Shown one piece after another: positions 12,737-46,219 of a stretch of 64,000 nt of DNA (position 1 is its first letter; each line of letters starts with the position of its first letter). The notes below the pieces were generated by a model that saw only the letters and a program-made list of their open reading frames with translations, had not been told where the DNA came from and made no database searches. The position numbers and the translations under genes were made by a program. Source of the stretch: a bacterium. Its GTDB lineage: Bacteria; Hinthialibacterota; Hinthialibacteria; H5-UNCL2. Location of the stretch: the NCBI GenBank assembly GCA_015075175.1, contig JABTUV010000001.1:1103677-1167676 (forward strand), written 5' to 3'.

Positions 12737-12881
12737 CGCGGGCGGTAGGCGCCGTCTCAGGAAAGATTGCAGCGTGCGGCCGTGCTCTCGATACGCGGCC
12801 CGAAGGTGCATCTCGGTACGATGCGCTCCCTCGTCGGGCCGCCCGCGAGGACGTCAGTCTTGTTCTTCTCTCAACCCTTCT

Positions 12882-22420: not shown

Positions 22421-22422
22421 CC

Positions 22423-23839: not shown

Positions 23840-23935
23840 AAAAGGAGCAAGCCCAGTCCTCGAGTAGCGGCCCGATGATCCCTGCGCCATGATGCACGAT
23901 GTCGCTTCGGGCCGCGTATCGGAAGGACGGCCTGA
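23840..23935. repeat. Structured repeat of family A (A-rich leader, TCCTCGAGTAGCGGCCCG, variable loop, CGGGCCGCGTATCG-AGGA)
   Basis: Sequence seen directly. It sits between convergent genes and may act as a bidirectional terminator. Confidence 0.6.
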
Positions 23936-24005
23936 CTGCGCCCGACCTCGCTTCAGCGTGGCCTCGGCGCTTGTCCTTTGTGCCTGAGGCGACGACCTGC
24001 GCCAA

Positions 24006-24515
24006 TCACCACCACCGACCACGCATAAGCCTCAATGCCTTCTCCAGGGTCTCCGCCTCGCACGCGAATCCCGCGACCGGCAATCCCTTTTGGCGGGCCG
24101 CGATCGTGGCGGCGGTGGCGCCGCGGATCGCCCAGTGCGCTCCCATCCCCGCCAACATGGCCCGCTCCGCGGGCGAAAGGGCCGTCGCATGGGGCACATC
24201 CGCGACGATCCCGTTCTCCCACTCTTTCAGCCCAAGCTCGTCCAGCAGCGCCCGCCCCAGATCAAGATCGTACGCATGATGCATGGCTACGAAGTGCGGT
24301 CCAATCAGGGCCGGTTCGCCTGCAAGCAGGCGAAGGTGGTCGTGCACCTGTATCGGTTGCGCCTGCGAGCCCAGCGGCGCGCCCGCCGCCCACCAGATGA
24401 CGGCCTCGGCGTTTTTTACCAGTCCCGCAAGGTCGGAAATCGCCGGATTGACCAAGGCCTCATCGACTCCCGCAATTGCCTCGGGAGTATAGAAAAGCAC
24501 GCGTCTGGCGGTCAC
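24006..24515 (-). CDS. Hypothetical protein (169 aa)
   Basis: Clean ORF with protein-like composition; family not recognised. Confidence 0.4.
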   Translation of the reverse strand: MTARRVLFYTPEAIAGVDEALVNPAISDLAGLVKNAEAVIWWAAGAPLGSQAQPIQVHDHLRLLAGEPALIGPHFVAMHHAYDLDLGRALLDELGLKEWENGIVADVPHATALSPAERAMLAGMGAHWAIRGATAATIAARQKGLPVAGFACEAETLEKALRLMRGRWW

Positions 24516-24820
24516 GAGTCCGTGTCCTTGATGAGTGCCGTGAGGGTTGCCGCGAGGCGCCGCGAGTCCGCGCCATGCACCTCCAGCGTCTTGTCGCGGC
24601 TGGTATGGCCGGCGACCACGGAGAGGCAGCGCGCCGGGCAGTCCAATGTCTCCGCCAGCAGCTCAAGCAGCTCGCGGTTGGCCTTGCCCTTCTCCGGCGC
24701 CGCATGGAGGGCGACTTTCAGCCGCTCGCCGACTACCCCGACAATCCCCCGCCGGGAGGACTTGGGAACGACTCGCACCGCGATGCGTATTCCTTCGGGA
24801 ATGATTGAGAGATATTTCAC
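24512..24820 (-). CDS. DUF167 / YggU-family protein
   Basis: Pattern AVRVVPKSSRRGIVGV..LKVALHAAPEKGKANRELLELLAETL...VVAGHTSRDKTL is characteristic of UPF0235. Confidence 0.7.
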   Translation of the reverse strand: MKYLSIIPEGIRIAVRVVPKSSRRGIVGVVGERLKVALHAAPEKGKANRELLELLAETLDCPARCLSVVAGHTSRDKTLEVHGADSRRLAATLTALIKDTDS

Positions 24821-24842
24821 CGCGACGCCCCGCTCACGCTGG

Positions 24843-24893
24843 CCATTCCCTTTCGTAATCGTAATCCTAATCGATTACGAGCACGACTCGCTG
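24843..24893. repeat. Solo hexanucleotide array (cgtaatcgtaatcctaatcgattacgagcacgactcgctgcg)
   Basis: Same CGTAAT/ATTACG motif as at 20.2 kb and 22.1 kb. Confidence 0.6.
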
Positions 24894-24907
24894 CGCGAAT
24901 CGTGGGA

Positions 24908-26663
<1,756 letters not shown>

Positions 26664-26674
<11 letters not shown>

Positions 26675-26936
26675 CAAACTTGCGGTCGATCAACGCTTGG
26701 ATGGCGTCCAACGCCTCGTCCGCGTCCTCCCCCCTCGCCAGAACCTCGATGGTCGAGCCGAACTCCGCCGCCAGCATCATCACCCCCATGATGCTCTTGC
26801 CGTTGACCGACTCCCCGTCCTTGGTGATGACGATCTCCGACTCAAAGGGCTGCACGGTCTCGACCAGCAGCGCGCAGGGACGCGCGTGCAGGCCCGCCTG
26901 GTTGCTGATGGTGAAGGTGCGCCTCTTTTCCTTCAT
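26664..26936 (-). CDS. ptsH: Phosphocarrier protein HPr
   Basis: MKEKRRTFTISNQAGLHARPCALLV... (HPr family, active His15 in the GLHARP context). Its ATG is preceded by a GGGAGCAGCGAGG ribosome-binding site. Confidence 0.8.
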
Positions 26937-27902
26937 ACCTCGCTGCTCCCTTCCGCCTGCGGCGGACGGTTCTTTCCCGATGACCTCGCGCAGGCGGTCG
27001 TCCAGCTCGCGGCTGGAGTGAATGCCCATCGACTTCAGGGTCTGGTTGAGCGCGCCCACCTCGATGATGGTCCCGATGTCCCGGCCCGGTCGAACCGGTA
27101 TGGTGATATGCGGCAACTCGACCTCCAGGATTTCAAACTTGTTGTCGTCGATGCCCAGCCGGTCCGAGAACCCCTGTTCGCCGCCTTCCACCAGCGTGAC
27201 CACCAACCGGATGCGCTTGCGCGGCCGCACCGCCTTGGCCCCGAACATGCGCTGCACATCAATTACTCCCAGCCCCCGGATCTCCATGTGGTGCGAGATC
27301 ACCGGCGAACAGGCGCCGATCAGGATCGAGCCTCCCAAGCAGCGGATGTCCACCACGTCGTCGGCGACCAGGATATGGCCGCGGGTGACCAGTTCCAGGG
27401 CGCATTCGCTCTTGCCCACGCCGCTGGCGCCGCGGATCAATACCCCCAAACCGTACACGTCCAAGAGCGAGCCGTGCACCAGCGTGCGCGGCGCGAACTC
27501 CGGCTCCAGCGAGTCCCACAGCCGCAGCGTCAACTTGGGCGTGGGCAGTGGCGTCACGAACACCGGTGTCGCGAACCGCTCCGCCAGCCCCAACACGAAC
27601 TCCGGCGGCCGGTAGCCCTTGGAGAAGATCACGCACGGTGTTGCGGGAGCGCCCAGGATGAACTCGCACGCCCGCCGCACCTGCTCGTCGCCCTGCGCCA
27701 GGTGCTCGTCCAGGTACGCCGACTCCCCGCTGCCGAAAATCTGAATCCGCTCCGCCCGGTAGCGGCTGTGGTAGCCCGTCAACTCGAGCGCCGGCCGATT
27801 CAGCTCCGCCGTCGTAATCTCACGTTCCAGGCCCTGGACCCCCGCCAGCAGCGTCAGGCCGAGCGCCGGTTCAGCCGCCAGGTTTGAGACTCGGTATGCC
27901 AT
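26937..27902 (-). CDS. hprK: HPr kinase/phosphorylase. No stop is observed before ptsH (an apparent read-through fusion, probably a 3' indel)
   Basis: Walker A GASGVGKSE and HprK family motifs. In the -1 frame a TGA overlaps the ptsH ATG (ATGA), which suggests a frameshift error near 26960. Confidence 0.75.
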
Positions 27903-28039
27903 AGTACCAAACGACGGAACTTCCTTCCCGGCCGATCTTCAGCTTCGACCTGACGTCACGGGCAAGATCATAGACGACTCCCGTGCGCCTGTAAATCACC
28001 CATGTCAGGTGGGTGCAGCCGTGAGATTCTGAGGCTGCG

Positions 28040-28200
28040 GCATCTTCACCTCTCCCTGGAGGGAGAGGTCAGCGTCCTGAGCGAAGACGAAGGGTGCCGG
28101 GTGAGGGGGAACGCCCGCCCGCCGCACCCCCTCACCCTTACCCTCTCCCCAAGGGAGAGGGAACTCCCACCTCCTCCCCTGGGAGAGAACACCATGTCAG
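28040..28200. repeat. Family B REP-like GC palindromes (CCTCTCCCTGGAGGGAGAGG; CCCCTCACCC...CCCTCTCCCCAAGGGAGAGGG)
   Basis: Same motifs as at 100-340. Confidence 0.6.
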
Positions 28201-28279
28201 GTCTGGCCAAACCCATCTCCGAGCGGTAGTCTTAAGCCTCGCGTGACGGCCCGCTTGTATCTACGAAGGAGGACGTGAC

Positions 28280-30322
28280 ATGAGTCATCGTCTTACCCGG
28301 CGCGACTTTCTGGCGACGACTGGACTGGCGACGGTCGCCGGACTTGCTCCCGCCTGGGTCCACGGGCGCGCCCCCGGCCCAATATCCTCATCATCCTGGC
28401 CGACGACTTGGGCTTCTCCGACATCGGCTGCTTCGGCGGCGAAATCCACACCCCCAACCTGGACGCGCTGGCGGGCAACGGCCTGCGCATGACGCACTTC
28501 TACAATACCGCCCGCTGCTGTCCCAGCCGCGCCAGCCTGCTCACGGGTCTCTACCCCCACCAGGCGGGCGTCGGCTGGATGGTCGCCGATTACGACAAGC
28601 CCGGCTATCGCGGCTTTCTCTCCGACCGCGTTGTGACCATCGCCGAGGCCCTGCGTCCGGCCGGCTACACGACCCTCATGTCCGGCAAGTGGCACGTCGG
28701 TGAGGTCCGCCCCCACTGGCCCGTGGACCGCGGTTTCGACGAGTATTACGGCATCGTCTCCGGCGGCAGCAACTACTGGAAACTGGACCGGGGCGCGTCT
28801 TCGCCCGCAACGACCAGCCCATCGTGCCGGACGCCCCCGGCTTTTACATGACCGACGCCTTCACCGACAACGCCCTCTCCTTTCTGGACCGGTACGCTGG
28901 CGGAGACAAGCCCTTCTTCCTGTATCTCGCTTACACCGCCCGCACTGGCCGCTGCACGCTTGGCCGGAGGACATCGAGAAGTATCGCGGCCGGTATCTCT
29001 GCGGGTGGGATCGGCTACGGCGGCGGCGGCATGAACGCATGATCGGCATGGGCATCGTCCGAAAAGAATGGCCGCTGACGCCCCGCGACTCCGTCGCACC
29101 CGCCTGGGACAGCCTGGGCGAAGACAGGAAACGCGACCTGGACCTGCGCATGGCCATCTACGCCGCGCAGGTGGATCGCATGGATCACAACATTGGCCGC
29201 GTGGTGCAACGACTGCGTCAATTGGGCCGGCTCGATAACACGTTGATCCTCTTTCTGGCCGACAACGGCGGCTGCGCGGAGGGCGGGCCGTTCGGCTTCG
29301 ACCGCGGAGAGGGACCCTTGGGAACCGCCGATTCGTACTCCAGTTACGGCCTCGGCTGGGCCAACGCCAGCAATACGCCTTTCCGCCGTTACAAGCACTG
29401 GGTCCACGAGGGCGGCATCGCCACCCCGCTGATCGCCCACTGGCCGGCAGTTATCAAGGCGCGTGGCACCCTTTCCGATCAGCCCGGCCACATCATCGAT
29501 CTCATGGCGACCTGCCTGGACGTGGCCGGCGCGAAATATCCCCGGGAGTTCGGGGGACATGAAATAACGCCGCTGGAGGGTAAGAGCCTCCTGCCTATCC
29601 TGGAGGGGAAGAAGCGCAAGGGGCACGAGGCCATCTTCTGGGAGCACGAGGGCAACCGCGCCGTGCGCGCCGGCGACTGGAAACTGGTGTCGCGCTTTCC
29701 CGGCAAGTGGGAACTCTACAACCTGCAAGAGGACCGCACGGAACTCCACGACCTGGCCGCCGAGCATCCCCGCAAGGTGCGGGAATTGGAGGCGCTCTAC
29801 AAACAGTGGGCGGAGCGCAGCCAGGTCCTGCCCTGGCCGGTGCGAACTCCGCCGTCTTCCGGCCGGCGCGAGTTCGTGCTCAAGGTCGGGGACCGGCTCG
29901 AGGGCGGGGAGGTTCCCAACATCGCCGAGACGGCGTTGCGCGTGAGTGCGAGCGTTACAGCAACGGGGGACGGCGTGATCGTCGCCCAGGGCGGTTCCCA
30001 GGCGGGCTTCGCGCTCTCCGTCGAGGATGGCCGGCCGGCGTTTACCGTGCGCAGCTGGCAAGCGACCACGACCATTAGGTCGGGACAGTCGATCCTGGGA
30101 CGCAAAGTGACGCTCCGGGCGCAGTTGGACGAAAACGGCGCCATGACGCTCTGGATCGACGACGAGAAGACGGCGAAGGGTTCCGCGCCTATTCTGATTC
30201 ACACCGTGCCCGGTGAGGGCCTTTTTGTAGGACGTGATCCCGGCAATCCCGTGGGCGCCTACGCGGCTCCCAGCGCCTTTGCAGGCACGATCCACGAAGT
30301 GCGCCTTACCCTCTTGCCGTAG
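28280..30322 (+). pseudogene. Arylsulfatase (formylglycine-dependent sulfatase, TAT-secreted) with 3 homopolymer frameshifts
   Basis: TAT signal RRDFLATTGLATVAGLA. Sulfatase motifs NILIILADDLGFSDIGCFGG and CCPSRASLLTG. The frame breaks fall at a C5 run (28371), a G4 run (28790) and a C3 run (28939). Confidence 0.8.
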
Positions 30323-30380
30323 TTGCGCCGCGCCTTGCCCTGAGTAGGCCGCAGGCCGCATCGAGGGGTGCTGCGCGTTG
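30323..30380. repeat. Hairpin repeat directly after the stop (family C/A variant: TAGTTGCGC..CCCTGAGTAGGCC..GGCCGCATCGAGGGGTGCTGCGC)
   Basis: Near-identical copy at 31229-31290. Confidence 0.55.
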
Positions 30381-30628
30381 CCGTGTTGGCGCAGCGTGCT
30401 GCGCGCGCGGAGCGGCATGGGTCCTATAGGACCTATAGGAACGATGGGACGACCTTCACGGCCGGCAATTTCCGCCGACGCCGTTCCATTCGTCCCATAA
30501 TCCTCATTTCGCCGGATCTTCCCTTGCTTCGCCCTTGACGCCGCCCGTGCCCTGTGCGAGATTATTGTCGCCTGCCCCGCTTCTACCGGAACTGTGTGCG
30601 CGTTTGGCGCGTTGGAGGCGCTTTGGCC

Positions 30629-31228
30629 ATGAACAGATTCCTCACCAGCCTCAGTACGTTGGAGACGCTGTTTCTTATTTCCGCCGTGCTGGGCGGCATT
30701 GCCTTTCTGGCGCGCATGGTGATGCAGTTCATGGGCGGCGCGGACGCCGACGCCGACCTGGACGCGGGCGGCCTGGACCACGATTTCGGCAGCCATGAAG
30801 CCGCCCACCACGCCGATTCCGACACCAGTTTCAAGATTCTCACCATCCAGGGCGTGACCGGCTTCTTCATGATATTCGGCCTGACGGGCCTCGCTTTTAT
30901 GCGCGCCACGCCGGTGGGATGGTTCTTTTCTACCGTGATCGCCTTTGTGGCGGGCTACGCCACGCTCTGGATCCTCGGCTGGCTGACCACGGTGATGCTG
31001 TCGCTGCAATCCAGCGGCAACGTGGACCTGCGCAACGCCATCGGCCAGGAGGCGACCGTGTATCTGAAGATTCCCGCCGACGGAACCGGCCAGGCCACGG
31101 TGTGCGTACAGGACCGGCTGCGCATCTTGGACGCGGTCTCCCAAAATCACGAGGAGATTCCCACCGGCCGGCGCGTCCAAGTGGTGGACGTGGGCGAAGA
31201 CAACGTGCTGGTCGTGAAGAAGTCGTAG
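30629..31228 (+). CDS. NfeD-family membrane protein (partner of SPFH/flotillin)
   Basis: N-terminal TM segments plus a C-terminal OB-fold-like domain; sits immediately upstream of the flotillin gene. Confidence 0.65.
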   Translation: MNRFLTSLSTLETLFLISAVLGGIAFLARMVMQFMGGADADADLDAGGLDHDFGSHEAAHHADSDTSFKILTIQGVTGFFMIFGLTGLAFMRATPVGWFFSTVIAFVAGYATLWILGWLTTVMLSLQSSGNVDLRNAIGQEATVYLKIPADGTGQATVCVQDRLRILDAVSQNHEEIPTGRRVQVVDVGEDNVLVVKKS

Positions 31229-31378
31229 TTGCGCAGCGCCTTGCCCCGAGTAGGCCAGAGGCCGTATCGAGGGGTGCTGCGCATCCGCGTACCCCCGCCA
31301 GCTTTGCCGGTACGGCGCAGCACGCTGCGTAACCACAGCCAGGCCTTTGGTACGGGATGATTGGCAAGGAGTGACATC

Positions 31379-32988
31379 ATGCAGTGGTTCGTTCTTCTGG
31401 GCACGGCGTTTTTCATCCTTCTGGTCGCGTCGCTCAGTTTTGTGGCCTCGCGCTACAAGCGCTGCCCCTCCGACAAGATTCTGGTGATCTACGGCAAGGT
31501 GGGGCGCGGGCAGTCGGCCCGCTGCATCCACGGCGGCGGCGCCTTCATTTGGCCGCTCATCCAGGACTACGCCTTCATGCGCCTCACCCCCATGACCATC
31601 TCCATCCCCCTCCAGAACGCCCTCTCGATGCAGAACATCCGCATCAACGTCCCCAGCACCTTCACCATCGGCATCTCGGTCGATCCGGCGGTGATGAACA
31701 ACGCCGCCGAACGCCTCCTGCACCTGGAGGTGCGCGACATCGAGGAGATGGCCAAGGAGATCATCTTCGGACAACTGCGTCTGACCGTCGCCTCGCTGAC
31801 CATCGAGCAGATCAACCAGGACCGCGAGAGCTTTCTGGAGGCGATCCGCAAGAACGTCGAGCCGGAGCTGAACAAGATCGGGCTTTACCTGATCAACGTG
31901 AACATCACCGACATCACCGACGAATCGGACTACATCGACAGCATCGGCAAGAAGGCGGCGGCGGAGGCCATCAATCAGGCCAAGATCGACGTGGCCCAGC
32001 AGGACAAGCTGGGCGCGATCAGCCACTCAGGGCCTGCGCGCGACGGACCATCAAGGTCGCCGAAAACACCCAGGCCGAGAAGAGGAAGGCGGCCAAAGCG
32101 GACCGGCGCGTCTACGATGCAACAGCAGGGAGACGACGGCCTCGGTGGGCAGGCGGCCGCCAATCCGACGCGAGATCAAGGTTGGCCGAAAACCTGGCTC
32201 AGGCGAGAAGGGCAAGAAGGCGGCCGAAGCGGACAAGCGCGTTTACGTCTCCGCCCAGGAGGCCGACGCGGTAGCCGGCGAGAACACCGCCAAGGCGCGC
32301 ATCGCCGACGTGGACGCCGAGCTGGCCGTCAAGCAGGCCGCCGCGCTGCAGCGCGCAGAAGTCGCCCGCCGCGAGGCCCAGGTCGAGATTCAGAAGGCCC
32401 AGTATCGCGCCGAGCAGGAGCGCCTCACCGCCGAAGAGGTGGTCAAACAGGAAATCTCCAAAAAGAAGATCGAGATCGCCGCCGAAGCCCAGGCCGAACG
32501 CCTCCGCCGCGAGGCCAGGGGCGAGGCCGACGCCATCCTGCTCAGGTACGAGGCCGAAGCCAAGGGCATCCGCCAGGTGTTGGAGTCCAAGCGCAGGGCT
32601 ATTCCAGCCTGGTCAAAAGCTGAGGGGCGATGCCAAGGCCGCCGCTACCCTCCTAATGATCGAGAAGATCGAGGAGATCGTGGCCCGCCAGGTGGAAGCC
32701 ATCAAGAACCTGAAGATCGACAAGATCACCGTCTGGGACAGCGGCGGCGCCAACGGGTCATCGACCTCCAGTTTTATCTCCAGTCTGATCAAGAGCCTGC
32801 CGCCGCTGCAGGAGATCGCGCAGATGGCGGGCGTCGAGCTGCCCGGCTACCTGGGACGCATGGCGGCGCCAAGCCCCCGCCAACCGGGCAGAGTCAGGCT
32901 GACACCGCTCATGATTTGCGCATTGTCATCTGGAATTGCGTGTCCCAAAATGGTTGCGGGAACAAGAAAAACCCGAGTCCGGCAGTAG
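31379..32988 (+). pseudogene. Flotillin-like SPFH domain protein (YqiK/FloA-like) with several frameshifts
   Basis: N-terminal TM plus SPFH domain (31379-32020) in one frame; the charged AEA.R/IKVAEN repeat region and C-terminus (DKITVWDSGG...GVELPGYLG) are spread over at least 3 frames. Confidence 0.7.
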
Positions 32989-32989
32989 C

Positions 32990-33720
32990 GGGAAAAATAA
33001 AAAACCCGAGTCCTCGAGTAGCCGGTACTCCGGCGTATCGAGAGGACGGCCGCGACGCGAGCAGGCCGGTGTTACGCCGCCGTGCCTCTCGATACGGCCC
33101 CGAAGTTACCTGTTGTCTCCATTGGAGGTGCCTCGCCGGGGCCTACTCGAGGACACGGCTCAGCTTTTCGCATTCCGGCTTGGAAAGAGTTGTTGAATAG
33201 AGCAGTTCCGAAAGAAAGAAAAACCCGAGTCCTCGGGTAGCCAGAAAAGAAAACCCGAGTCCGACAGTAGCGGGAAAAATAAAAACCCGAGTCCGGCAGT
33301 AGCGGGAAAAACAAAAAACCCGAGTCCTCGAGTAGCCGGTACTCCGGCGTATCGAGAGGACGGCCGCGACGCGAGCAGGCCGGTGTTACGCCGCCGTGCC
33401 TCTCGATACGGCCCCGAAGTTACCTGTTGTCTCCATTGGAGGTACTCGCCGGGCCTACTCGAGGACACGGCTCAGCTTTCATTCCGGCTTGGAAAGAGTT
33501 GTTGAATAGAGCAGTTCGAAAGAAAGAAAACCCGAGTCCTCGGGTAGCCGGAAAAGAAAACCCGAGTCCGGCAGTAGCGGGAAAATAAAACCAGTCCGGC
33601 AGTAGCGGGAAAAACAAAAAACCCGAGTCCTCGAGTAGCCGGTACTCCGGCGTATCGAGAGGGCGGCCCCGATGCGCCCAGCCCGCCTTCGGAGCGGCCC
33701 CGGTCTTTCATCCTCCAAGG
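32990..33720. repeat. Complex repeat block: a ~345-bp unit duplicated in tandem, each copy holding forward and reverse family A hairpins plus 24-bp AAAACCCGAGTCC-N3-AGTAGCGGG subrepeats
   Basis: Direct reading: 33000-33345 is almost identical to 33345-33690. Confidence 0.7.
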
Positions 33721-33773
33721 GTGCGGCGCAGCCTCGTGAGGGCCTGCCTCTCCTCAGTCGCGGCGGCCGCCGA

Positions 33774-34472
33774 TCAGCCCCGCGCGATACAACGCCCAGA
33801 TGAGGCTGCAGAATGGGCGATGGCGCCCGCCACGTAAGTCAGCGCCGCCGCCGTCAACACTTTGCGCGCGCCGTCCGCCTCCACGGTCGAGAGAAAGCCG
33901 TCATTCCGCAAGGCGACCATGGCGCGGCGGCTGGCGTCGAACTCGACCGGCAGCGTAATCAGGGTGAAGAACACGAACCCGCCGAACAGCGCCACTCCCA
34001 GATAGGCCAGCGTCGTGCCCAGGTACGTCTCCAACCCGAAGAGAACCGCGCCTACGATCACGAGCGTGATGCCGATATTGGTCCCCAGTCCCGCGACCGG
34101 CACGACCGCGTTGCGCAGGAACAGCGGCGCGTATCCGGTCGCCTGCTGCAGTGCATGACCCGCTTCGTGCGCCGCCACCCCCAGCGCCGAGATGCTGCTG
34201 CTGTCGTAGACGCTCTGCGACAGGCGCAGCACGTGCGACCTTGGATCATAATGGTCCGTCAGGTGGCCGCCCACCCGCTCGACCGCTACGTCATGGAGGC
34301 CCGCGCGGTCCAGAATCCGCCGCGCGACCTGCGCTCCCGTCAGCCCCCGCGCCGTGCGAATGCGGTTGAAGCGCGCAAACGTCCCTTGCACCAGGAGCGC
34401 CGCCGCCCCGGAGATCACCATCCCTGCCAGGATGACCATCAGGTATACGTGGTCATAAAACATGGGCCACAT
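33774..34472 (-). CDS. YugP-like neutral zinc metallopeptidase (membrane-associated)
   Basis: HEAGHALQ zinc-binding motif, N- and C-terminal TM segments; 232 aa. Confidence 0.7.
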   Translation of the reverse strand: MWPMFYDHVYLMVILAGMVISGAAALLVQGTFARFNRIRTARGLTGAQVARRILDRAGLHDVAVERVGGHLTDHYDPRSHVLRLSQSVYDSSSISALGVAAHEAGHALQQATGYAPLFLRNAVVPVAGLGTNIGITLVIVGAVLFGLETYLGTTLAYLGVALFGGFVFFTLITLPVEFDASRRAMVALRNDGFLSTVEADGARKVLTAAALTYVAGAIAHSAASSGRCIARG

Positions 34473-34613
34473 GGATCATCGCCTCCTTGTCCTCGCTCTT
34501 CCCACGTCGTTAGAATAGCACTTCGACCCGCCGACCGCATCTTTTTGCGGTCCTGCCCCTAATAACGCCGCCTAGGGCGTCCGCGACGAAACAACCGATC
34601 GCCGCAACCGCCG

Positions 34614-35464
34614 TCATTTCCAGTACTTGCCGAAAAAAAACTGGAACAGCTCGCGCTTGTCCGCCGGGATATGCTCGCGGCCGGTCAGGAGGGCGTTGGC
34701 CAGGCTGTTCTCGTATGGGCCGGGCCGGTCCGGGTCGATGCGCGGCACGAGGGTCTTGATCGCCCGCTTCACGTTCTCCACGTTCTTTAACAGATTGGCG
34801 ACCACCACCTCGACGGACACATGCTCCTCGTGCCAGCAATCGTAGTCCGTGCTGCTCGCGATGGTGGCGTAAGACATCTCCGCCTCGCGGGCAAGACCTC
34901 CGGCAGCGCCGTCATGCCGATCACCGACGCGCCCCAGGCCCGATGCATCGCGCTCTCCGCCTTGGTGGAAAACAGCGGTCCCTCCATGCACACGTAAGTC
35001 CCCCCCCGATGTACGGTCAGCCCGATCTCCTCCAAGCAGTCCGCTACCAGCTGGGACAACTCCGGACAGAACGGCTCGGCGAATCCGCAATGCACCGCGC
35101 AGGGATCGAAAAACGTGTTGGGCCGGTGCTTCGTCCGGTCGATGATCTGGTCGGGCACGACCATGTGCAGAGGCTCGATCTCGGGCTTCAGGCTGCCCAC
35201 GGCGGAGATGGTGACGAGCTTCTTCACCCCCAGCATCTTCAGGGCATAGATGTTGGCCTGGTAGGGCACGTGCGTGGGGTTGAACTTATGTCCGCGGCCG
35301 TGCCGGGGCAGGAAGGCAACCGATTGCCCGCCCAACCTGGCCAGCCGGATTTCGTCCGACGGCTTGCCGAACGGCGTGTCCGGGTAAAAGGCGTCATAAT
35401 ACTCCACGCCGTCGATCTCGTACACGCCCGAGCCGCCGATTACGCCGATGCCTGCCTGTGCCAT
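34614..35464 (-). pseudogene. mtnP: S-methyl-5'-thioadenosine phosphorylase (MTAP) with one frameshift near 34893
   Basis: VIGGSGVY...SAVGSL...TYVCMEGP in one frame and AREAEMSYATIASSTDYDCWH in another; a single missing base in GAGGTCTTGCC reconnects them. Confidence 0.8.
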
Positions 35465-35619
35465 GAATCAACCTCCGATGGGGTCGTAAAGATGGGCAGG
35501 ATAGCGGCAAACGAAGGGACAGTCACCCATTTTCCATGCAAGCTCCTGCGCCAACCCCACGTCCCACCCGAAAATGGGCGCCTCCTCGCAAAATCGGCCC
35601 TGACAGGGTTGCGGGAGAA

Positions 35620-35720
35620 AGAAGAACCGAGTCCTCGAGTAGCGGCCCGACGAGCTGGATGCGTCAGCGCGAGCTGTTACTTCGGGCCGCGTATCGAGAG
35701 GACGCCCTCTATGCGTGCAG
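35620..35720. repeat. Family A structured repeat
   Basis: gaaagaagaaccGAGTCCTCGAGTAGCGGCCCGacgag...cttCGGGCCGCGTATCGAGAGGACGcc. Confidence 0.6.
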
Positions 35721-35832
35721 GCCTCCTTCGGAGTGGCCTTCGTTTTTTTGCAGCGAATTTCCCCCGTGGACAAATCCCGCCGTTTCTCCTAAACCTCTGT
35801 CAATCATCCCCTGCATGGAGAGGAACCTCCGC

Positions 35833-37766
35833 CATGCCTCCAGTCAAACCGGCCAAGCTGGGACTGCTCGGTCAGTTCATCCGCTCCAGCGTCTTCCAGA
35901 ACTACGGCATGGTGTTCATTCTCATTCTCCTGGGCGGGGTGGTATCGGTCGCGACCTGGGAGCCGTGGGACTTCCACGCGGGCAGAAAGGGCGGGCGGTT
36001 GGCGGCGGAAGCGGTCGCCGCGGAAGGCGTCAAAGGCGAGGTATTCCTCCTGGCGATTGCCCCGCCCGACCGCGAGCGCGAGTACATCGATGCCTTCGCC
36101 GCCTTCCAGGAGAAGGCGACCGGCGTGCGAACCGCGGAGGCGCGCGTCTTCACCGACATGACCGAGGCCCCGCGGCAACTGCGGCTCCTCCTCAACCAGG
36201 CCGTGACCGCCGAGGCGACTCCCGCCGCTCTCGTCTGCTTCACGCAATCCGGCGCTCAGCGCGCCCGCGAAATCCTCCCTCAATTGGCGACCGCGCTGGC
36301 CCGCCCCGGCCTCGCTCAAGTCCCTATCCTCTCCCCTCCCATGACGAGCCGCTCCATCTTCCTCAGCTACGACAACATCATGACCGTTGTCCGCCAAAGC
36401 GCGCTCACCGCCATCATGGCCGTGGGCATGACTATGGTGATTATCACCGGCGGCATCGATCTGTCGGTAGGTTCGCTCTTGGCCCTCATCGGCGTGATCT
36501 GCGCGCTCGTGCTCAAGTCGGATTACGGCATTCCATGGTGGGGATTGGCGCTGGTGGGCTGGCTGGTGTTTACCGTGGCGGGCAGCCGGACCCCGCGCGT
36601 AGCCGCCCTGCGCCTGCCCGGCGCGCCCTGATCCTGGCCCGCTTGCGCTGGCCCGTGGCAAGTGCCTCCCGCTGACCCGACACCACATCCTCGGCATCGA
36701 GAAGGACGGCCGTGCGACCGCGCGGGCGCTGATCCACCAGGTCGGCGACTCGGGCAAGGTCGCCCTCCTCGTCGATTCGTCCAAGAGCGACAACCGCCGC
36801 ATGGTTGAAGACTTCAAGGCCGAATTGCGCGCCCATCCCGGCCTGCAAATCATCGCCGAGGAGGAGATCGCCGCCCCTGGATGGTACTGGCCGTGGGAAC
36901 GCGGGCCCAGGTTCCAGCGCGCCCACGACGCCGTCGGCCGACTTCTGGACGAGCACGACGACCTCGCCGCCATCGTGCCCGTGGACATCGGCGGCTACGA
37001 CGGCGCGGCCAAGAAACTGACCGAGTCGTTCGTCACCACCAAGGTCGTCTGGCCCGGCATGTCGGCCACGGGCCTGATCCTCTTCGCCATCTTCATGAGC
37101 GTCTTCTGCGGCGCCGTAACCGGCTCGGGCACGGGAGTCCTGGCCACGCGCTTTTCCATCCCGCCCTTCATCGCCACGCTCGCCATCATGCTCATGGCGC
37201 GCAGCCTGGCCATCTCCATGACGCGCTCGGAGGCGATCTCCAACCTGCCGCACGACTTCACCGCCTGGCACAACGGTTTCATCTTCGAGGCGCGCATCGG
37301 CCAGTGGCTGCCCGTGCCCGGTCTCTTCATGGCGCTGATCTACCTGGCCGGGCACGTGCTGATGACGCGCACGCAGTTCGGGCGTTACGTGTACGCCATC
37401 GGTGGCAACGAGGAGGCGACGCGACTCTCGGGCGTGCGCACCGGCAGGATCAAAATATGGGTCTATCTCATCAACGGCGCCCTGGCGGGATTCGTGGCCG
37501 CCCTCACCGCCGCCAAGCTGGCCGCCGGCGATCCCAAGACCGGCGTGCTGAAGGAACTGGACGTGATCGCCTCCGTCGTCGTAGGCGGAACCAGTCTTTC
37601 CGGCGGCGAGGGCAAGGTGCTGGGGACGTTGATCGGCGCGCTCCTCATCGGCGTAGTCCGCAACGCGCTCAACCTGCTGGGATTCCCGGACACGCTGCAG
37701 GACTTCGCCATCGGCGCGGCCATCCTGGGCGCGGTACTCTTGGACGTGGCCAAGAAGAGACTGTAA
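35833..37766 (+). CDS. ABC sugar permease (RbsC-like) with two inserted PBP-like (LacI/RbsB-type) segments; reading frame broken at 36631
   Basis: Permease motifs (N-terminal TM, FLSYDNIMTVVRQSALTAIMAVGMTMVIITGGIDLSVGS, IPPFIATLAIM, and C-terminal GG-S-GGEG--LGTLIGAL) are interleaved with PBP-like blocks: the N-lobe around 35990-36330 and the C-lobe GKVALLVDSSKSDNRRMVEDFKAEL...AAIVPVDIGGYDGA around 36700-37000. Confidence 0.45.
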
Positions 37767-37805
37767 GACGCCGAGTGGGGACGGGGTTTCCGCCAACGGC
37801 GCAAT

Positions 37806-39869
37806 TCACTCCGGCGGTTGAGCCAGCGTCTTTTCGGCTCGCGTGATGAACCCGCGCAGCCCCGACTGGCGGTCGATGTACTCGCCGAACTCGGCGTCGT
37901 AGCGCGCCCGCGCATCCTTCAAGGCCGCCAGCCGTGCCACGGCCTGCCGGCGCGCGCGCGGAAGGCGCGCGGCGGCGTTCTCATCCGGTCCGGCGTAGCA
38001 GGCATCCGCCGCCAGAATCCACGCCGAAAGGACCTCCTGCAGCGCCAGCCCATGTCGGACGTTCTCAAGCAGCCCCGCCGCGCGGCGCGGCTCGATGCGG
38101 GCGGCGACGCGCTCGGCCAGCCTCAGGCCCTCCTGCCGCGCCGCCAGCGCCCGCCGCGCGTCCCGCCGCATCTCCCCACGCCGGCTCCTGTAATGGTCAA
38201 AAATGTATTTTACCGGATCGTCAGTGGACACGCCGTCCTCGGAGGCGATCAGTTCGCCCGCGTAAAAGTAATTGCGGTAGACGGGAAACATGGGATGCCA
38301 GGGATTCTCGTCGCAGACGGCGCGCACGTACATGCCGCGGTCGCGCGCCTCTTCGGACAGCTCCATGATGCGGGCGTAGTCCGCCGCCGCCTCACGACCC
38401 ACCTTGAGCACGGCGAATTCCCGCAGCAACCGTCTCGCATCGGCCCTCGGCGTCCACGCCAGCCGACCGATGAGATAAACGTTCGCCTCGGTCCAGTCGT
38501 CAAAACCGTAGAAGTACGGCAGGCGGTATTTCCCGCCCGAACCGCCGAACTTGACCCACGCCCAGACGCCCGCGGGCCGCGCGCTCTCCAGCTGTCGGAA
38601 GCGCTTCGAGTAATGCCGCGCCGGTACCACGGGCACTGCGCCCATGCCGTCGTACTCGCGGCAACCCTGGTACTCGACGATCACGGGATGCCTGGCGGCC
38701 GCGATGGTGGGATTGAGCGGCTGGCCGCCCCAGAATTCATGTGTATTCTTGATACAAACCCAGCTGGATCCGGATCGCAACCGGGACACCGCGGTCGCGT
38801 ACATGGCGGGATCGGTGTGGATGCTGGGATGTCCCACCCACCAGGTGCGGGCGATGAACTGCTTGTCCAGCTCGCCCGCCACGAGGTTCTCCATGGCGCC
38901 GAAGAAGTCCGCCACGCGCTCTGGCTCGCCCCGGCGATGGTCGCGACCGACGGGCCGAAAGACGACCGCGCCCGGCTCGCCCAATTCTCCCACGCGAAAG
39001 AGATAGCCCGCCATCTGCGGATAGGTGCGCGCGAAATAGCGATATTTGGTTTCCAGCGCCTCCAAGAGCGCGGGATGCCGCACATCGGCGGCGGCCGCGC
39101 GCCCCCGGCCTTGCACCGCGCCGGCCCGCTGCAGGGACGCCATCACCGCCGGTGGAAACGTCACCTCGCTGTTCCAGAGATAGCAGCGAAACCCGTAGGC
39201 CGTCCCGATGTCCAACAGCCGCGCGTAGAGATCGCGCCAGGCGGCCAGCCTCGCGCGCTCTGTCGCGGCCACGACCACCCCGGGAAAAATCTCCGGGTCT
39301 ACCCAGCGGCTCTCGACCTGGATGAAGAGCAGGGCGTTGTAGCCGTTTTCCAGCATGATCTGGCAGTAACGCTCGAAGCGTTCGGGAATCCGGTTGAAGC
39401 GCGACAGGTCGAGATAGGGCGGCTGGTCGCTGTCGTACATGTTGCGGAAGCCGCCGAGCCAGTAGGGGCGCTCGGGGCGGGCTTCCGGCGGATAGAAGGG
39501 GGCTTCGACTTCGACCATGCGCAGGGGGTAGGCGGGCGATTCGTCGAGGCCCAGGTTTGCGGGAATTTTGCCGGCCAGGGTGATCTCGCGCGCCAGCCGC
39601 AAGGCGCCGTACGCGCGTCCGGCCGGCTCGCGCGCCTCGATGAGAAACGCCCCGCGGCGCCCGCGCGATAGGCGATAGCCCTCTCCCCCCGGTCCGCCCT
39701 CTGCGACCTGCACCGTGCCGCCGCCGTGCGCCTCCAGCGCCGACGCGAGCACCCGGTGCGCGTATCGCCACGCGGCTGACTCCCGGTCGCCCGGCGCCGC
39801 CTCGATGACGGTCGCCGCCAGTCCCGCGGAAGGCACGAGCAGCGCGAAAAGAAGAAGACGCCGGAGCAT
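37806..39869 (-). CDS. Secreted glycoside-hydrolase-like protein (family not determined)
   Basis: Signal peptide MLRRLLLFALLVPSAGLAA, 688 aa, Trp/Tyr-rich TIM-barrel-like composition. Confidence 0.5.
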   Translation of the reverse strand: MLRRLLLFALLVPSAGLAATVIEAAPGDRESAAWRYAHRVLASALEAHGGGTVQVAEGGPGGEGYRLSRGRRGAFLIEAREPAGRAYGALRLAREITLAGKIPANLGLDESPAYPLRMVEVEAPFYPPEARPERPYWLGGFRNMYDSDQPPYLDLSRFNRIPERFERYCQIMLENGYNALLFIQVESRWVDPEIFPGVVVAATERARLAAWRDLYARLLDIGTAYGFRCYLWNSEVTFPPAVMASLQRAGAVQGRGRAAAADVRHPALLEALETKYRYFARTYPQMAGYLFRVGELGEPGAVVFRPVGRDHRRGEPERVADFFGAMENLVAGELDKQFIARTWWVGHPSIHTDPAMYATAVSRLRSGSSWVCIKNTHEFWGGQPLNPTIAAARHPVIVEYQGCREYDGMGAVPVVPARHYSKRFRQLESARPAGVWAWVKFGGSGGKYRLPYFYGFDDWTEANVYLIGRLAWTPRADARRLLREFAVLKVGREAAADYARIMELSEEARDRGMYVRAVCDENPWHPMFPVYRNYFYAGELIASEDGVSTDDPVKYIFDHYRSRRGEMRRDARRALAARQEGLRLAERVAARIEPRRAAGLLENVRHGLALQEVLSAWILAADACYAGPDENAAARLPRARRQAVARLAALKDARARYDAEFGEYIDRQSGLRGFITRAEKTLAQPPE

Positions 39870-39886
39870 GGAACCGACCTCGTGCT

Positions 39887-40938
39887 TCAAGCCTGCCACA
39901 GGCCCTCCCCGTACTCATCCAGCGGCGGCTCGCCGCAGGCGGCGACATAGTCCTGGTTGACCCACACCGCGAAACTCGTGTAGTGGCGGATGCCGCGCTC
40001 TTTGTAGGTCGCCAGGTCCGCGCGGAACAGCTCGCCGTTCCAGGGCAGCGGCTTCGGCTGATTGCGCCGGTAGCCGCAGTGCAGCGACTCGTCCAGGCAG
40101 TATTCGAGGACCTGCGCGCCGTCCGCGCCGAACACGGCCAGCTGCGCATCCAGGTTCTCCAGTTGCTCGGACTGCGCCCGCATGGGAACGTCAAAACGAC
40201 GCCTGATCGGCGCCCACTCCAGAAAGAGGCCGCGCTCCGGTTTGACCTCCTTCGGCGGTTCCCAGGTCGTGCCGTAGGCCAGGTGCGCGAGCGTGGCGCG
40301 ACGGTCCGACTGCCGCAGCGCCGCGATCATCGCGTTCTCCAGGATGACGACCTGGTCCGTGTCCGAAAGAACCCTGCATTTCGGGCAGCGGCACATTCCA
40401 TCGCGTCGTCCACCCAGTAGAAATAGCGCCCCGTGGTGGGACGCAGAATCTCGCCGTACTTGACGGCGTTCTCGCAGACTACCGCAATCGCTTGCTTGGA
40501 ATGCACGCACAGGTTGTAATCCTTCGTGCGCTCGCCCTTTTCGTTCATGCGGAACATCTCGGGGTTTTTCTCGAACAGGCTGCGCGGCAAGAGATCGTAC
40601 ATGGCGTGCAGCTCGTGCTCGATCTCGATTCCCAGCCGGCGGCAATCGGCGTAAAATCGATGCCATTCATCCGTCATGGCAAAGCGGGCGACCTCGCTGG
40701 GGAACTTGTGCGTGGCGATGGTGGAGAGGCCGGCGGCGTGCGCCTTCTCGGGCCAGTTCCAGTTGGGAATGTCGTCGGGGGCGGAGATGACCACGCCGCG
40801 CGTGCGAAAAAAGGGCCTACGACGGGTGGTTCGGTTGGAGCGCGGGGACTGGCACGCCGTGAAAGCAGCTCCCAGCGCAAGCGTGGAGAGAAATCCGCGA
40901 CGCGGCACGGCGGCCACCGGCTCTCGCGTTAAGGACAT
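39887..40938 (-). pseudogene. TAT-secreted hypothetical protein with a frameshift near 40400
   Basis: TAT motif RRGFLSTLALGAAFTA; two frames join at YWVDD|GMCRCPKCRVLSD. Confidence 0.45.
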
Positions 40939-40984
40939 GAACGTACTCCCGTGTCGATATTGTGCGGCTTCTGGCAAAGTACTC

Positions 40985-41085
40985 GGCAAGAAAACAAAAC
41001 CGAGTCCTCAAGTAGCGGCCCGATGAGTCATGTCCATCCCACGGAGACGTAACGACGGGCCGCATATCGAGCGGACGGCTTCTTG
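40985..41085. repeat. Family A structured repeat
   Basis: gaaaacaaaaccGAGTCCTCAAGTAGCGGCCCGatgag...CGGGCCGCATATCGAGCGGACGGC. Confidence 0.6.
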
Positions 41086-44406: not shown

Positions 44407-44670
44407 ACCACTCAAGAACACTATGTAATATACTTAATTTATTAAGCTTAAATAAAACAGCCGTAAAAAAGTGCTTTTTCGCGTTTTTTCCCTTGTGATT
44501 TCCCTTGGCTTCGACTATATATCGTATTGGATTGGTCCTATATGCCGGAGCAGCCCGCCGGGGTGCACTCCGGGGCGGAGTGCTCCAGCTCTGTCGGCAA
44601 CGCCCGCGCGCATGCCGCTCCGCTGGACCAAGTACCCCGCGACCAAGAGAGAATACGACCGAGGGAGCGT
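44407..44670 (+). promoter_or_regulatory. AT-rich island (suf promoter/operator region) with palindromes CTTAATttATTAAG and ATATA-N17-TATAT
   Basis: GC content drops sharply compared with the flanks; lies upstream of sufB. Confidence 0.45.
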
Positions 44671-46116: not shown

Positions 46117-46219
46117 CGTTGGAGGTTACCCCATGGACCTCGGAGTTCCGTGACTGTTCTAGCGTCGACGTCAAGGCCTCCGCAAGAGACGGAAGTCAAT
46201 CGACGCGACGTCAGAAGAG

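What the first reader, a model, noticed from the sequence alone, without database searches (positions are those of the whole stretch)
23840..41085. Widespread family of structured intergenic repeats with the conserved arms TCCTCGAGTAGCGGCCCG ... CGGGCCGCGTATCGAGAGGA (at least 8 copies in 64 kb, including a tandemly duplicated ~345-bp block at 33.0-33.7 kb)
Copies lie at 23840, 30330, 31235, 33000-33700 (several, both orientations), 35620 and 40985. They share an A-rich leader, a perfect 8-bp GC stem (GCGGCCCG/CGGGCCGC), an outer TCCTC/GAGGA stem and a conserved asymmetric internal loop (GAGUA opposite GUAUCGA). The loop region varies freely. This is the signature of a selected RNA or DNA structure, not random palindromes. 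The AGUA/GA-type internal loop resembles protein-binding loop-E/sarcin-ricin-like motifs. All copies lie between genes, several between convergent genes, so they may act as terminators or insulators, REP-like elements, or a small RNA family.
Basis: seen in the sequence. Interest (0 to 1): 0.65.

Follow-up and report, generated by a model that had tools for sequence, protein, structure and literature searches.

The report
Hairpin DNA repeats partnered with GIY-YIG nucleases
The repeats are real and belong to a two-helix hairpin repeat family found in at least seven bacterial phyla; elsewhere these hairpins bracket the gene of a tiny GIY-YIG nuclease, so they most likely work like the recently described Ssn nuclease/hairpin system rather than as a small RNA.

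Summary
A covariance model finds 9 copies in the window (E 1e-12 to 3e-5). There are also 2 degenerate copies, 7 truncated half-units and a tandem block with a 303-314 bp period. Anatomy: P1 (4-6 bp), GA, GUAG, P2 (variable hairpin), C, GUA, UC, GA, P1'. Both helices covary; GAGTA and GTATCGA are invariant. Rfam has no match.

The same motif, with 21 fixed bases, occurs in Sphingomonas, other Proteobacteria, Bacteroidota, Chloroflexi, Gemmatimonadetes, Caldithrix and Candidatus Peribacteria. It is often seen as inverted pairs and sometimes nested.

Seven of the 59 motif-selected loci carry a ~85-100 aa single-domain GIY-YIG gene nearby. In the reverse test on 80 metagenomic homologues, 58 of 66 evaluable loci have a long or short (GAGC..TCGA) form beside the gene and 38 have one on both sides. 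The usual layout is sense copy, gene, antisense copy.

This mirrors the NTS-ssnA-NTS layout of Ssn ssDNA nucleases (Chenal 2025). However, the motif fails their SRM pattern and the protein clade is distinct. A 75%-identical relative lacks the element at an orthologous spacer.

The window has no GIY-YIG gene, so its copies are orphans. The A-rich "leader" is a U-tract on the opposite strand, so some copies may also act as terminators.

Verdict: a REP-like DNA element, a new variant of a known kind. Nuclease recognition is inferred, not shown.

The parts
12782..12850 (-). Degenerate full copy. The 5' arm is CCTCGCGGGC instead of CCTCGAGTAGC. P2 is GCGGCCCG/CGGGCCGC and the 3' arm is GTATCGAGAGCAC. 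An A-rich leader lies at 12851-12895 on the - strand.
   Evidence: Not recovered by the covariance model at E<=10.
23850..23934 (+). Full long-form copy between convergent genes: a sigma-54 activator (22072-23778, +) and a 169-aa gene (24006-24515, -). On the - strand the hairpin is followed directly by UUUUU.
   Evidence: CM 23.2 bits, E 3e-5. Fold. Gene calls confirmed by an independent assembly.
30330..30376 (+). Variant-subfamily copy (CCCTGAGTAGGCCGCAGGCCGCATCGAGGGG), 14 nt after the TAG stop of the sulfatase gene. It has an outer GCGC..GCGC stem and no A-rich leader.
   Evidence: CM 30.8 bits, E 1e-7.
31236..31282 (+). Variant-subfamily copy, 14 nt after the TAG stop of the NfeD gene. 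It is absent from the orthologous NfeD-Band7 spacer of a 75%-identical relative.
   Evidence: CM 45.6 bits, E 1e-12. Relative L145.
32953..33746 (.). Cluster formed by tandem duplication, with periods of 314 and 303 bp (two full copies and a partial third). Each unit holds half-units, a short-P2 full copy on the + strand, a 35-nt spacer and a long-P2 full copy on the - strand.
32972..32992 (+). Half-unit containing only the 5' arm: CCCGAGTCCGGCAGTAGCGGG, preceded by an A-rich leader.
33004..33053 (+). Full copy with a short P2 (CCGG UACU CCGG).
   Evidence: CM 43.7 bits, E 5e-12..
33077..33160 (-). Full copy in inverted orientation with a long P2 (GGCCCCG...CGGGGCC).
   Evidence: CM 41.3 bits, E 3e-11..
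33224..33306 (+). Three tandem half-units at 33224-33244, 33254-33274 and 33286-33306, separated by A-rich spacers.
33318..33367 (+). Full copy; a duplicate of 33004-33053.
   Evidence: CM 43.7 bits.
33391..33472 (-). Full inverted copy; a duplicate of 33077-33160.
   Evidence: CM 41.0 bits.
33531..33609 (+). Three tandem half-units at 33531-33551, 33561-33581 and 33590-33609.
33621..33670 (+). Full copy with a short P2; the last copy of the cluster, about 100 nt from the 3' end of the - strand Zn-peptidase gene (33774-34472).
   Evidence: CM 42.2 bits. Pfam.
35625..35709 (+). Full long-form copy. It shares about 30 nt of upstream similarity (GGTTGCGGGA..AAGAA) with the start of the 33-kb cluster. 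A terminator-like hairpin with a T run follows at 35729-35750 on the + strand.
   Evidence: CM 38.4 bits, E 3e-10.
40998..41082 (+). Degenerate full copy (CCTCAAGTAG ... ATATCGAGCGG), 31 nt upstream of the GH2 ORF. Its A-rich leader pairs with a T-rich 3' flank to give an extended hairpin (z = -4.6).
   Evidence: CM 9.9 bits, E 0.86. Fold.

Best explanation
The window carries orphan copies of a REP-like, single-strand-folding DNA hairpin repeat. The layout is a 5' tag, helix P1, the invariant internal loop GA-GUAG / C-GUA-UC-GA, and a variable helix P2.

The family spans many phyla. Its partner is a roughly 85-100 aa single-domain GIY-YIG nuclease whose own gene is bracketed by a sense copy upstream and an antisense copy downstream.

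By analogy with the Ssn/NTS system, one strand (the top strand as written here) folds when the DNA is single-stranded. The nuclease would read the invariant loop bases plus the helices and nick nearby. Copies multiply and nest as non-autonomous elements.

What is shown:
- the anatomy and the covariation;
- the cross-phylum distribution;
- the flanking of GIY-YIG genes;
- nested copies and a presence/absence difference between relatives.

What is inferred:
- that the nuclease binds or cuts these hairpins;
- that the nuclease drives their spread;
- that the genome behind this window encodes such a nuclease.

Secondary role (inferred): in this genome the A-rich leader is a U-tract after the hairpin on the opposite strand, so some copies probably also terminate or stabilise convergent transcripts.
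For: Structure:
- 9 pairs in P1 and P2 covary. 95.7% of cells are paired against 69% in shuffles and 34-50% when the partner is slid. There are 103 double-sided changes against 31 in shuffles.
- GAGTA and GTATCGA are invariant or nearly so in 83 distinct copies.
- G-T wobbles outnumber A-C mismatches 19 to 7, so one specific strand is the folding strand.

Distribution:
- An exact 21-base two-arm pattern hit at least 59 loci in Sphingomonas, other Alpha- and Gammaproteobacteria, Bacteroidota, Chloroflexi, Gemmatimonadetes, Caldithrix and Peribacteria.
- Copies often sit as inverted pairs.
- No hits in 2.9 million viral contigs.

Partner gene:
- tblastn found a small GIY-YIG ORF in 7 of the 59 motif-selected loci, from 4 phyla. 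Pfam PF01541 was confirmed.
- In the reverse test on 80 metagenomic homologues, 11 carry the strict long form: the + copy ends 10-22 nt before the start of the gene match and the - copy starts 23-51 nt after its end. Shuffles gave 0.
- Counting long and short forms together, 58 of 66 evaluable loci have an element beside the gene and 38 of 66 have one on both sides. There are 197 hits against 3 in shuffles, and 153 of the 197 lie in the gene flanks.
- Short forms also flank the gene in a Sphingomonas parapaucimobilis replicon.

Mobility:
- Nested copies in L053 and L055, and a short form inside the P2 of Sphingomonas long forms.
- The element is absent from the NfeD-Band7 spacer of a 75%-identical relative.
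- Short-read assemblies of this organism end close to where the 30330 and 31236 copies lie in the window.

Precedent:
- Ssn nucleases are small GIY-YIG enzymes that cut ssDNA next to a genome-wide hairpin that also flanks their gene (PMC11893778).
- The UPF0213-type relatives examined (GxGAKYTR loop) have no flanking hairpins by eye. Our clade, like the S. meliloti Ssn-type protein, has a PG[YF]T loop and flanking hairpins.
Against: - No GIY-YIG gene lies in the 64-kb window (tblastn; profile search best E 0.45). The rest of the genome could not be searched.
- The window copies carry a different 5' tag (CCGAGT plus an A-run) from the copies that flank GIY-YIG genes (CCGTTCG).
- The motif does not fit the published SRM pattern: 2 of 80 loci match, which is the chance level.
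- The protein clade scores higher against UPF0213 structures (62.9 bits) than against an NTS-flanked Ssn-type protein (53.5 bits).
- No biochemistry exists for this clade.
- Covariation and wobble bias fit an RNA structure equally well.
- The sense copy just upstream of the gene could be a 5'-UTR regulator rather than a transposon-like end.
- The order sense copy, gene, antisense copy is not universal; Methylobacterium bullatum shows the reverse.
Confidence: 0.6

Rival explanations
1. A family of structured RNAs. The element would be transcribed and would act as RNA, either as a protein-binding small RNA or sponge or as a cis-regulatory leader. The invariant internal loop would be the binding site.
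For: - Strong covariation and a G-U over A-C bias on one strand.
- The sense copy ends 10-40 nt before the GIY-YIG gene in many loci, as a 5'-UTR element would.
- Several window copies lie co-oriented behind + strand genes.
- The copy at 35625 is followed by a terminator-like hairpin with a T run on the same strand.
- The tandem half-units with A-rich spacers resemble sponge RNAs.
Against: - Copies occur in both orientations and typically as tight inverted pairs.
- Copies nest inside each other.
- A relative lacks the element at an orthologous spacer.
- No Rfam family matches.
- Neighbouring genes are unrelated in function.
- The one consistent neighbour is a DNA nuclease. SsnA of the analogous system does not bind RNA (PMC11893778).
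Confidence: 0.15
2. Classical GTAG-tagged REP elements (REPINs/BIMEs) that are recognised and mobilised by a RAYT (Y1 HUH transposase) encoded elsewhere in the genome.
For: - An invariant GTAG lies immediately 5' of a GC-rich palindrome, which is the hallmark of RAYT-associated REPs (PMC3733652).
- Inverted dimers, clusters and intergenic location match REP behaviour.
- The PVC bacterium Opitutus terrae is rich in GTAG REPs.
Against: - The GTAG sits inside an internal loop enclosed by a second covarying helix, and an equally invariant GTATCGA lies on the 3' side.
- tblastn with an E. coli RAYT sequence recalled from memory found nothing in the window or in 59 loci.
- The gene repeatedly bracketed by the elements is a GIY-YIG nuclease.
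- O. terrae REPs encode 7-8 residues (21-24 nt), which is much shorter and a different design.
Confidence: 0.1
3. Mainly Rho-independent terminators or mRNA-end stabilisers that became repetitive. The hairpin plus the U-tract on the strand opposite to the reader's orientation would end convergent transcripts.
For: - The terminator scan flags 5 sites on the - strand that consist of the leader and 5' arm followed by a T run.
- On the - strand the 23850 copy folds into a -44 kcal/mol hairpin followed directly by UUUUU, just downstream of the - strand operon that ends at 24006.
- The 12782 copy is likewise followed by a U-rich run on the + strand.
- The 33-kb cluster lies behind the - strand peptidase gene.
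Against: - In most folds the U-run starts 5-13 nt after the helix.
- The 40998 copy sits between divergent genes, and its A-run pairs with its own 3' flank.
- The 30330 and 31236 copies have no U-tract.
- Copies in Sphingomonas, Bacteroidota and other groups have no U-tract at all.
- A terminator role does not explain the invariant loop bases or the GIY-YIG linkage.
Confidence: 0.15

Closest known systems
Ssn nucleases and their NTS/SRM hairpin repeats (Chenal et al., Nat Commun 2025, PMC11893778); these correspond to the CGTC-tagged REPs of Di Nocera et al. 2013
   Same: - A roughly 90-100 aa single-domain GIY-YIG protein whose gene is bracketed by hairpin repeats.
- The same repeats are dispersed in many copies through the genome.
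- Invariant non-palindromic bases give the hairpin an orientation.
- Repeats cluster and are mostly intergenic.
- The system occurs in many phyla.
   Different: - Ssn repeats have a single 8-9 bp stem with a 5' CGTC tag and a CCA-type tail. This motif has two helices separated by an invariant asymmetric loop (GAGTAG / CGTATCGA), or the short form GAGC-loop-TCGA.
- It does not match HGTCWY...RNCYNB.
- The protein clade shares 37% identity with an NTS-flanked S. meliloti protein and is closer to UPF0213.
- ssDNA cleavage has not been tested for this clade.
GTAG-tagged REP / REPIN / BIME elements with RAYT (TnpA-REP) transposases
   Same: - GTAG lies 5' of a GC-rich palindrome.
- Inverted dimers and mosaic clusters occur.
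- The gene of the associated enzyme is flanked by the repeats (REPtron-like layout).
- The repeats probably fold as single-stranded DNA.
   Different: - The associated gene is a GIY-YIG nuclease, not an HUH Y1 transposase.
- An outer helix and an invariant 3' GTATCGA are present.
- The invariant loop bases and outer arms (21 fixed bases) are conserved across phyla, whereas classical REP families are typically confined to one species or a few related ones.
IS200/IS605 subterminal hairpins
   Same: Imperfect hairpins at both ends of a small nuclease gene; recognition presumed to be strand-specific and on single-stranded DNA.
   Different: Different enzyme fold. No evidence here for excision or integration chemistry or for a target tetranucleotide.
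Intrinsic terminators carried by repeat elements (for example REPs downstream of genes)
   Same: In this window several copies present a hairpin followed by a U-run on one strand, downstream of genes.
   Different: The U-tract is specific to this genome and is often separated from the helix. The invariant loop has no role in termination.

Membership tests
Ssn / SRM system (PMC11893778) | A hairpin repeat present in many copies per genome | tested here: met
   The window holds 9 model-supported copies, 2 degenerate copies and 7 half-units in 64 kb. At least 13 loci come from one Sphingomonas genome.
Ssn / SRM system (PMC11893778) | The repeats flank the gene of a small single-domain GIY-YIG nuclease | tested here: met
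   Met for the family: 58 of 66 loci have an element beside the gene and 38 of 66 have one on both sides. The long form has fixed spacing in 11 of 80 loci. Not observable in the window itself, which has no GIY-YIG gene.
Ssn / SRM system (PMC11893778) | The repeat matches the SRM search pattern HGTCWYN(0-2)YYVSBRHN(0-5)WNVSBRGN(0-2)RNCYNB | tested here: not met
   2 of 80 GIY-YIG loci match, against 2.2 in shuffles. None of the window elements match. The regex does detect a literal NTS.
Ssn / SRM system (PMC11893778) | The protein belongs to CDD cd10448, or matches N. meningitidis SsnA at E<1e-10 | not testable with these tools
   No CDD library or SsnA sequence was available. Proxy scores: 53.5 bits and 37% identity to an NTS-flanked S. 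meliloti protein, and 62.9 bits to UPF0213 BH0048. NCBIfam gave no hit.
Ssn / SRM system (PMC11893778) | Strand-specific binding and cleavage of ssDNA next to the hairpin, with no activity on dsDNA or RNA | not testable with these tools
   This needs biochemistry. The only indirect hint is the wobble bias: 19 G-T against 7 A-C, so one strand folds.
GTAG REP / RAYT | A GTAG tag at the 5' end of a GC-rich palindrome | tested here: met
   GAGTA is found in 82 of 83 copies, and the following G in 82 of 83. However, the tag is internal to a larger hairpin.
GTAG REP / RAYT | A RAYT (Y1 transposase) gene associated with and flanked by the repeats | tested here: inconclusive
   tblastn with a RAYT sequence recalled from memory found nothing in the window or in loci L001-L059. 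A RAYT elsewhere in the genome cannot be excluded. The flanked gene that was actually found is a GIY-YIG nuclease.
Loop E / sarcin-ricin RNA motif | A G-bulged module with AGUA opposite GAA | tested here: not met
   The 5' strand has AGUA, but the opposite strand reads GUAUCGA. The consistent pairing is GA/UC plus a GUA/GUA loop and a GA bulge (sequence inspection).
Any Rfam 15 family | A match at or near the gathering score | tested here: not met
   No hit in the window at the gathering threshold. Only noise at E<=10 in 32800-33800. None on the elements in 30 related loci.
Rho-independent terminator | A GC-rich hairpin immediately followed by a U-run on the transcribed strand, downstream of a gene | tested here: inconclusive
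   Five - strand sites were flagged. The 23850 copy fits well, other copies have a 5-13 nt gap, and the 40998 copy does not fit. No transcript data were available.

The most novel reading that the evidence does not exclude
The long form (GAGTAG-P2-CGTATCGA) and the short form (GAGC-loop-TCGA), together with their dedicated clade of roughly 90-aa GIY-YIG proteins, would be a second, undescribed class of Ssn-like pairs of ssDNA nuclease and recognition hairpin. It could even be a GIY-YIG-driven mobile element that inserts into hairpin loops. It would span at least seven phyla, including the candidate phyla radiation, and recognition would go through an invariant asymmetric internal loop between two helices.
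Probability: 0.35. Interest if true: 0.8.

Novelty: new variant of a known kind. Interest (0 to 1): 0.6.

Why it matters
Site-specific nucleases that cut only single-stranded DNA were first described in 2025, with one type of recognition hairpin. If this family is what it appears to be, three things follow.

1. It adds a structurally different recognition site (two helices plus an invariant internal loop) and a distinct protein clade, which would widen the toolbox for cutting ssDNA.
2. It explains a very common but unnamed class of intergenic palindromes (CCGTTCG..GAGC..TCGA and its long form) in Sphingomonas and other Proteobacteria, Chloroflexi and Bacteroidota and in metagenomes.
3. The nested copies give a concrete way to test whether small GIY-YIG nucleases spread their own hairpins.

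For annotating this window, the result means these sites should be marked as repeat elements. They should not be called sRNA genes.

Tried and rejected
- Rfam at gathering and E-value thresholds on the window and 30 loci found nothing on the elements.
- Literature string searches for the arms returned only cloning primers and GAGUA reference hairpins. Searches for the short form returned nothing.
- The REP literature describes GTAG and CGTC families that are single-stem designs. O. terrae REPs are 21-24 nt and unrelated.
- Kink-turn, hammerhead (CUGAUGA..GAAA) and sarcin-ricin readings of the loop were checked by hand and rejected.
- A sigma-54 promoter reading of the leader was rejected because GG-N10-GC fits in only one copy.
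- A type III toxin-antitoxin reading of the tandem half-units was rejected because there is no downstream toxin gene.
- A replication-origin reading of the GC-skew switch near 40 kb found no DnaA-box cluster.
- The source organism could not be identified. Two exact-protein look-ups failed and there is no plasmid match. Two look-ups found only short contigs labelled "bacterium". The nearest named relatives of the NfeD protein, at 32-48% identity, are from several phyla (Sedimentisphaerales/Planctomycetota, Acidobacteriota and others).
- An attempt to reach N. meningitidis SsnA through a homologue search with the S. meliloti protein listed almost only rhizobial proteins.

Full report
**Observation**

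The repeat is real. A looser 5' arm (CCGAGTCCNNNNGTAGC, up to 2 mismatches) gives 16 hits against 2.5 expected. A two-arm pattern gives 6 exact hits against none in shuffles.

A covariance model (R1) was built from 34 sequences, 32 of them from other organisms. It recovers 9 window copies at E 1e-12 to 3e-5 and a tenth, degenerate copy at 40998-41082 (E 0.86).

The block at 33 kb is a tandem duplication with periods of 314 and 303 bp, not 345 bp. It also holds seven 21-nt half-units that have only the 5' arm. The GCGGCCCG stem is a feature of four copies, not of the family, and the octamer alone is not enriched. The copies at 30330 and 31236 form a subfamily without the A-rich leader, and each starts 14 nt after a TAG stop codon.

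**Anatomy**

- a short 5' tag;
- helix P1 (4 bp, extendable to 6 in the window);
- GA;
- GUA;
- helix P2, which begins with a G-C pair and has a free-form top of 11 to about 60 nt;
- GUA;
- UC, which pairs with the GA on the 5' side;
- a GA bulge;
- P1'.

In 83 distinct copies from the window and other genomes, GAGTA is found 82 times and GTATCGA 76 times. Every P1 position and P2 positions 2-6 switch among C-G, G-C, U-A and A-U.

On a 34-sequence alignment, 95.7% of cells are paired, against 69% in shuffles and 34-50% with slid partners. There are 103 double-sided changes against 31 in shuffles. G-T wobbles outnumber A-C mismatches 19 to 7, so one particular strand is the one that folds.

The loop is not a loop-E or sarcin-ricin module: the strand opposite AGUA has no GAA. 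It also does not fit a kink-turn or a hammerhead core. Rfam 15 has nothing for it.

**Distribution outside the window**

They came from Sphingomonas (many per genome), other Alpha- and Gammaproteobacteria, Bacteroidota, Chloroflexi, Gemmatimonadetes, Caldithrix and Candidatus Peribacteria.

In Sphingomonas the copies are usually tight inverted pairs. In Bacteroidota they form alternating arrays. In Caldithrix they form a 32-nt tandem array. The pattern is absent from 2.9 million viral contigs.

A repeat that keeps its loop bases across phyla, while its helices drift with compensation, is being read by something conserved.

**The partner**

One Bacteroidota locus has a roughly 100-aa ORF between the copies. 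tblastn with that ORF hit 7 of the 59 motif-selected loci, from four phyla. Pfam confirms a lone GIY-YIG domain in the four representative ORFs tested.

The reverse test used an alignment of four of these proteins to fetch 80 metagenomic loci.
- Eleven carry the strict long form. The sense copy ends 10-22 nt before the start of the gene match and the antisense copy starts 23-51 nt after its end. Shuffles gave none.
- Most of the others are flanked by a short form, CCGTTCG-P1-GAGC-(3-5 nt)-TCGA-P1'. This is the same design with a small loop in place of UAG-P2-CGUA.
- Counting both forms, 58 of 66 evaluable loci have an element beside the gene and 38 have one on both sides. There are 197 hits against 3 expected, and 153 of them lie in the gene flanks.

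The same arrangement is seen in a Sphingomonas parapaucimobilis replicon and, with nested short forms, in Sphingomonas sp. ac-8.

**What is known**

Chenal et al. 2025 (PMC11893778) described Ssn. These are single-domain GIY-YIG proteins of about 94 aa that bind a hairpin repeat (NTS, generalised as SRM) only as single-stranded DNA. They cut a few nucleotides upstream of the hairpin, on one strand only, and do not act on dsDNA or RNA. Their genes lie in an NTS-ssnA-NTS arrangement, and the repeats are dispersed in hundreds of copies. Those repeats are the CGTC-tagged REPs of Di Nocera et al. 2013.

The system found here has the same logic but differs in detail.
- The motif does not match the SRM pattern: 2 of 80 loci match, which is chance, and the regex does detect a literal NTS. 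It has two helices around an invariant loop rather than a tagged single stem.
- The protein clade is 37% identical (53.5 bits) to an S. meliloti GIY-YIG that is flanked on both sides by NTS-type hairpins.
- It scores 62.9 bits against the UPF0213 structure 1zg2, whereas the S. meliloti protein scores only 23.4 bits against it.
- Three UPF0213-type proteins with the GxGAKYTR loop showed no flanking hairpins by eye. Our clade and the S. meliloti Ssn-type protein share a PG[YF]T loop and both have flanking hairpins.

Membership in Ssn as delimited by CDD cd10448 could not be tested.

**DNA or RNA**

The evidence favours a DNA-level element:
- both orientations and inverted pairs are common;
- copies sit inside the P2 or loop of other copies (L053, L055; Sphingomonas long forms contain a short form);
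- a contig from a relative whose NfeD is 75% identical has a 60-nt NfeD-Band7 spacer with no element, where the window has 132 nt including the 31236 copy;
- short-read assemblies of this organism end close to where the 30330 and 31236 copies lie in the window;
- the neighbouring genes in the window have unrelated functions.

None of this excludes transcription. The sense copy just ahead of the GIY-YIG start codon could also be a leader.

**Features specific to this window**

The A-rich leader is best read on the other strand. There, the leader plus the 5' arm form a small hairpin followed by a U-run (five sites), and the whole element forms a long hairpin upstream of that U-run.

- The 23850 copy fits a terminator for the minus-strand operon that ends at 24006.
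- The 12782 copy and the 33-kb cluster are placed similarly.
- The 40998 copy is not. Its A-run pairs with its own 3' flank.

The U-tract is absent from the family in other genomes, so termination is at most a local side-role.

The half-units keep the leader, the tag, GTAG and the first P2 bases, and then restart. They look like repeated partial duplications of the 5' end. I cannot say how they arise.

No GIY-YIG gene is present in the window and no RAYT-like ORF was detected (using a probe from memory). The copies here are therefore orphans, and the link to a nuclease in this genome is inferred.

**Verdict**

This is a real, selected hairpin repeat. The most likely reading (about 0.6) is a REP-like ssDNA hairpin family partnered with a distinct clade of small GIY-YIG nucleases, working like Ssn/SRM. 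It is a new variant of a known kind.

The rivals are an RNA family (0.15), RAYT-type REPs (0.10) and terminators as the main function (0.15). The last of these is compatible with the main explanation as a secondary role.

Noticed in passing
window 100-345 (- strand) and 28040-28190 (+ strand); also L145 55-110: A second, unrelated repeat family: CCTCTCCC-N4-GGGAGAGG followed by TCGGCGCGYAGCGCCGGGTGAGGGG. The palindrome core gives 3 hits against 0.07 expected. The 28-kb copy contains GTCCTGAGCGAAGACGAAGGG, which resembles the short-form GIY-YIG hairpin (GAGC..TCGA) with one change. The same family occurs in the 75%-identical relative.
   Followed up: partly
window, whole; switch near 40 kb: Cumulative GC skew falls steadily to a minimum near 40 kb and then rises, as at a replication origin. 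No DnaA-box cluster was found (2 near-matches against 3.2 expected). Eight of the 11 copies lie on the + strand, all but one of them left of the switch.
   Followed up: partly
L032 4781-4874 (+), next to the element at 4889-4939 (-): In a Chryseobacterium genome the element lies 15 nt from a Flavo-1 RNA (RF01705, 67.7 bits), a motif of unknown function.
   Followed up: no
L055 1100-1600 (- strand); L140 1495-2543: In Sphingomonas the GIY-YIG gene sits at a conserved position directly upstream of a SpoU-type RNA methyltransferase gene. In L055 it is in one open frame with it, read through a flanking hairpin. This suggests a resident, domesticated locus rather than a freely moving one.
   Followed up: partly
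L053 7349-7405 and about 7430-7480 (- strand); L055 1180-1225 and 1505-1570: Elements are nested precisely inside the apical part of other elements (long in long, short in short). This hints that hairpin tops are preferred insertion sites.
   Followed up: partly
L047 255-341: In a Caldithrix contig, a 32-nt unit holding a minimal element (P2 reduced to GCGAAGC) is tandemly repeated across an assembly gap, about 100 nt upstream of a 509-aa ORF.
   Followed up: no
window 30418-30500: Between the 30330 copy and the NfeD gene there is a direct repeat, TCCTATAGGA CCTATAGGA. It is followed by the inverted repeat GGAACGATGGGACG ... CGTTCCATTCGTCCCA. These are unrelated to the family.
   Followed up: no
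window 24587, 43530, 56674, 59581: Four matches to the published SRM (Ssn-related motif) pattern against 0.7 in shuffles. The match at 56674 (TGTCACCCGCCGACAGGCGGGCGATCCGG) is a clean hairpin. They are not part of the family studied here.
   Followed up: no
window 44000-48000: G+C drops to about 0.60 from about 0.65-0.70 elsewhere, with a strong positive GC skew at 46-48 kb. This may be an acquired segment.
   Followed up: no
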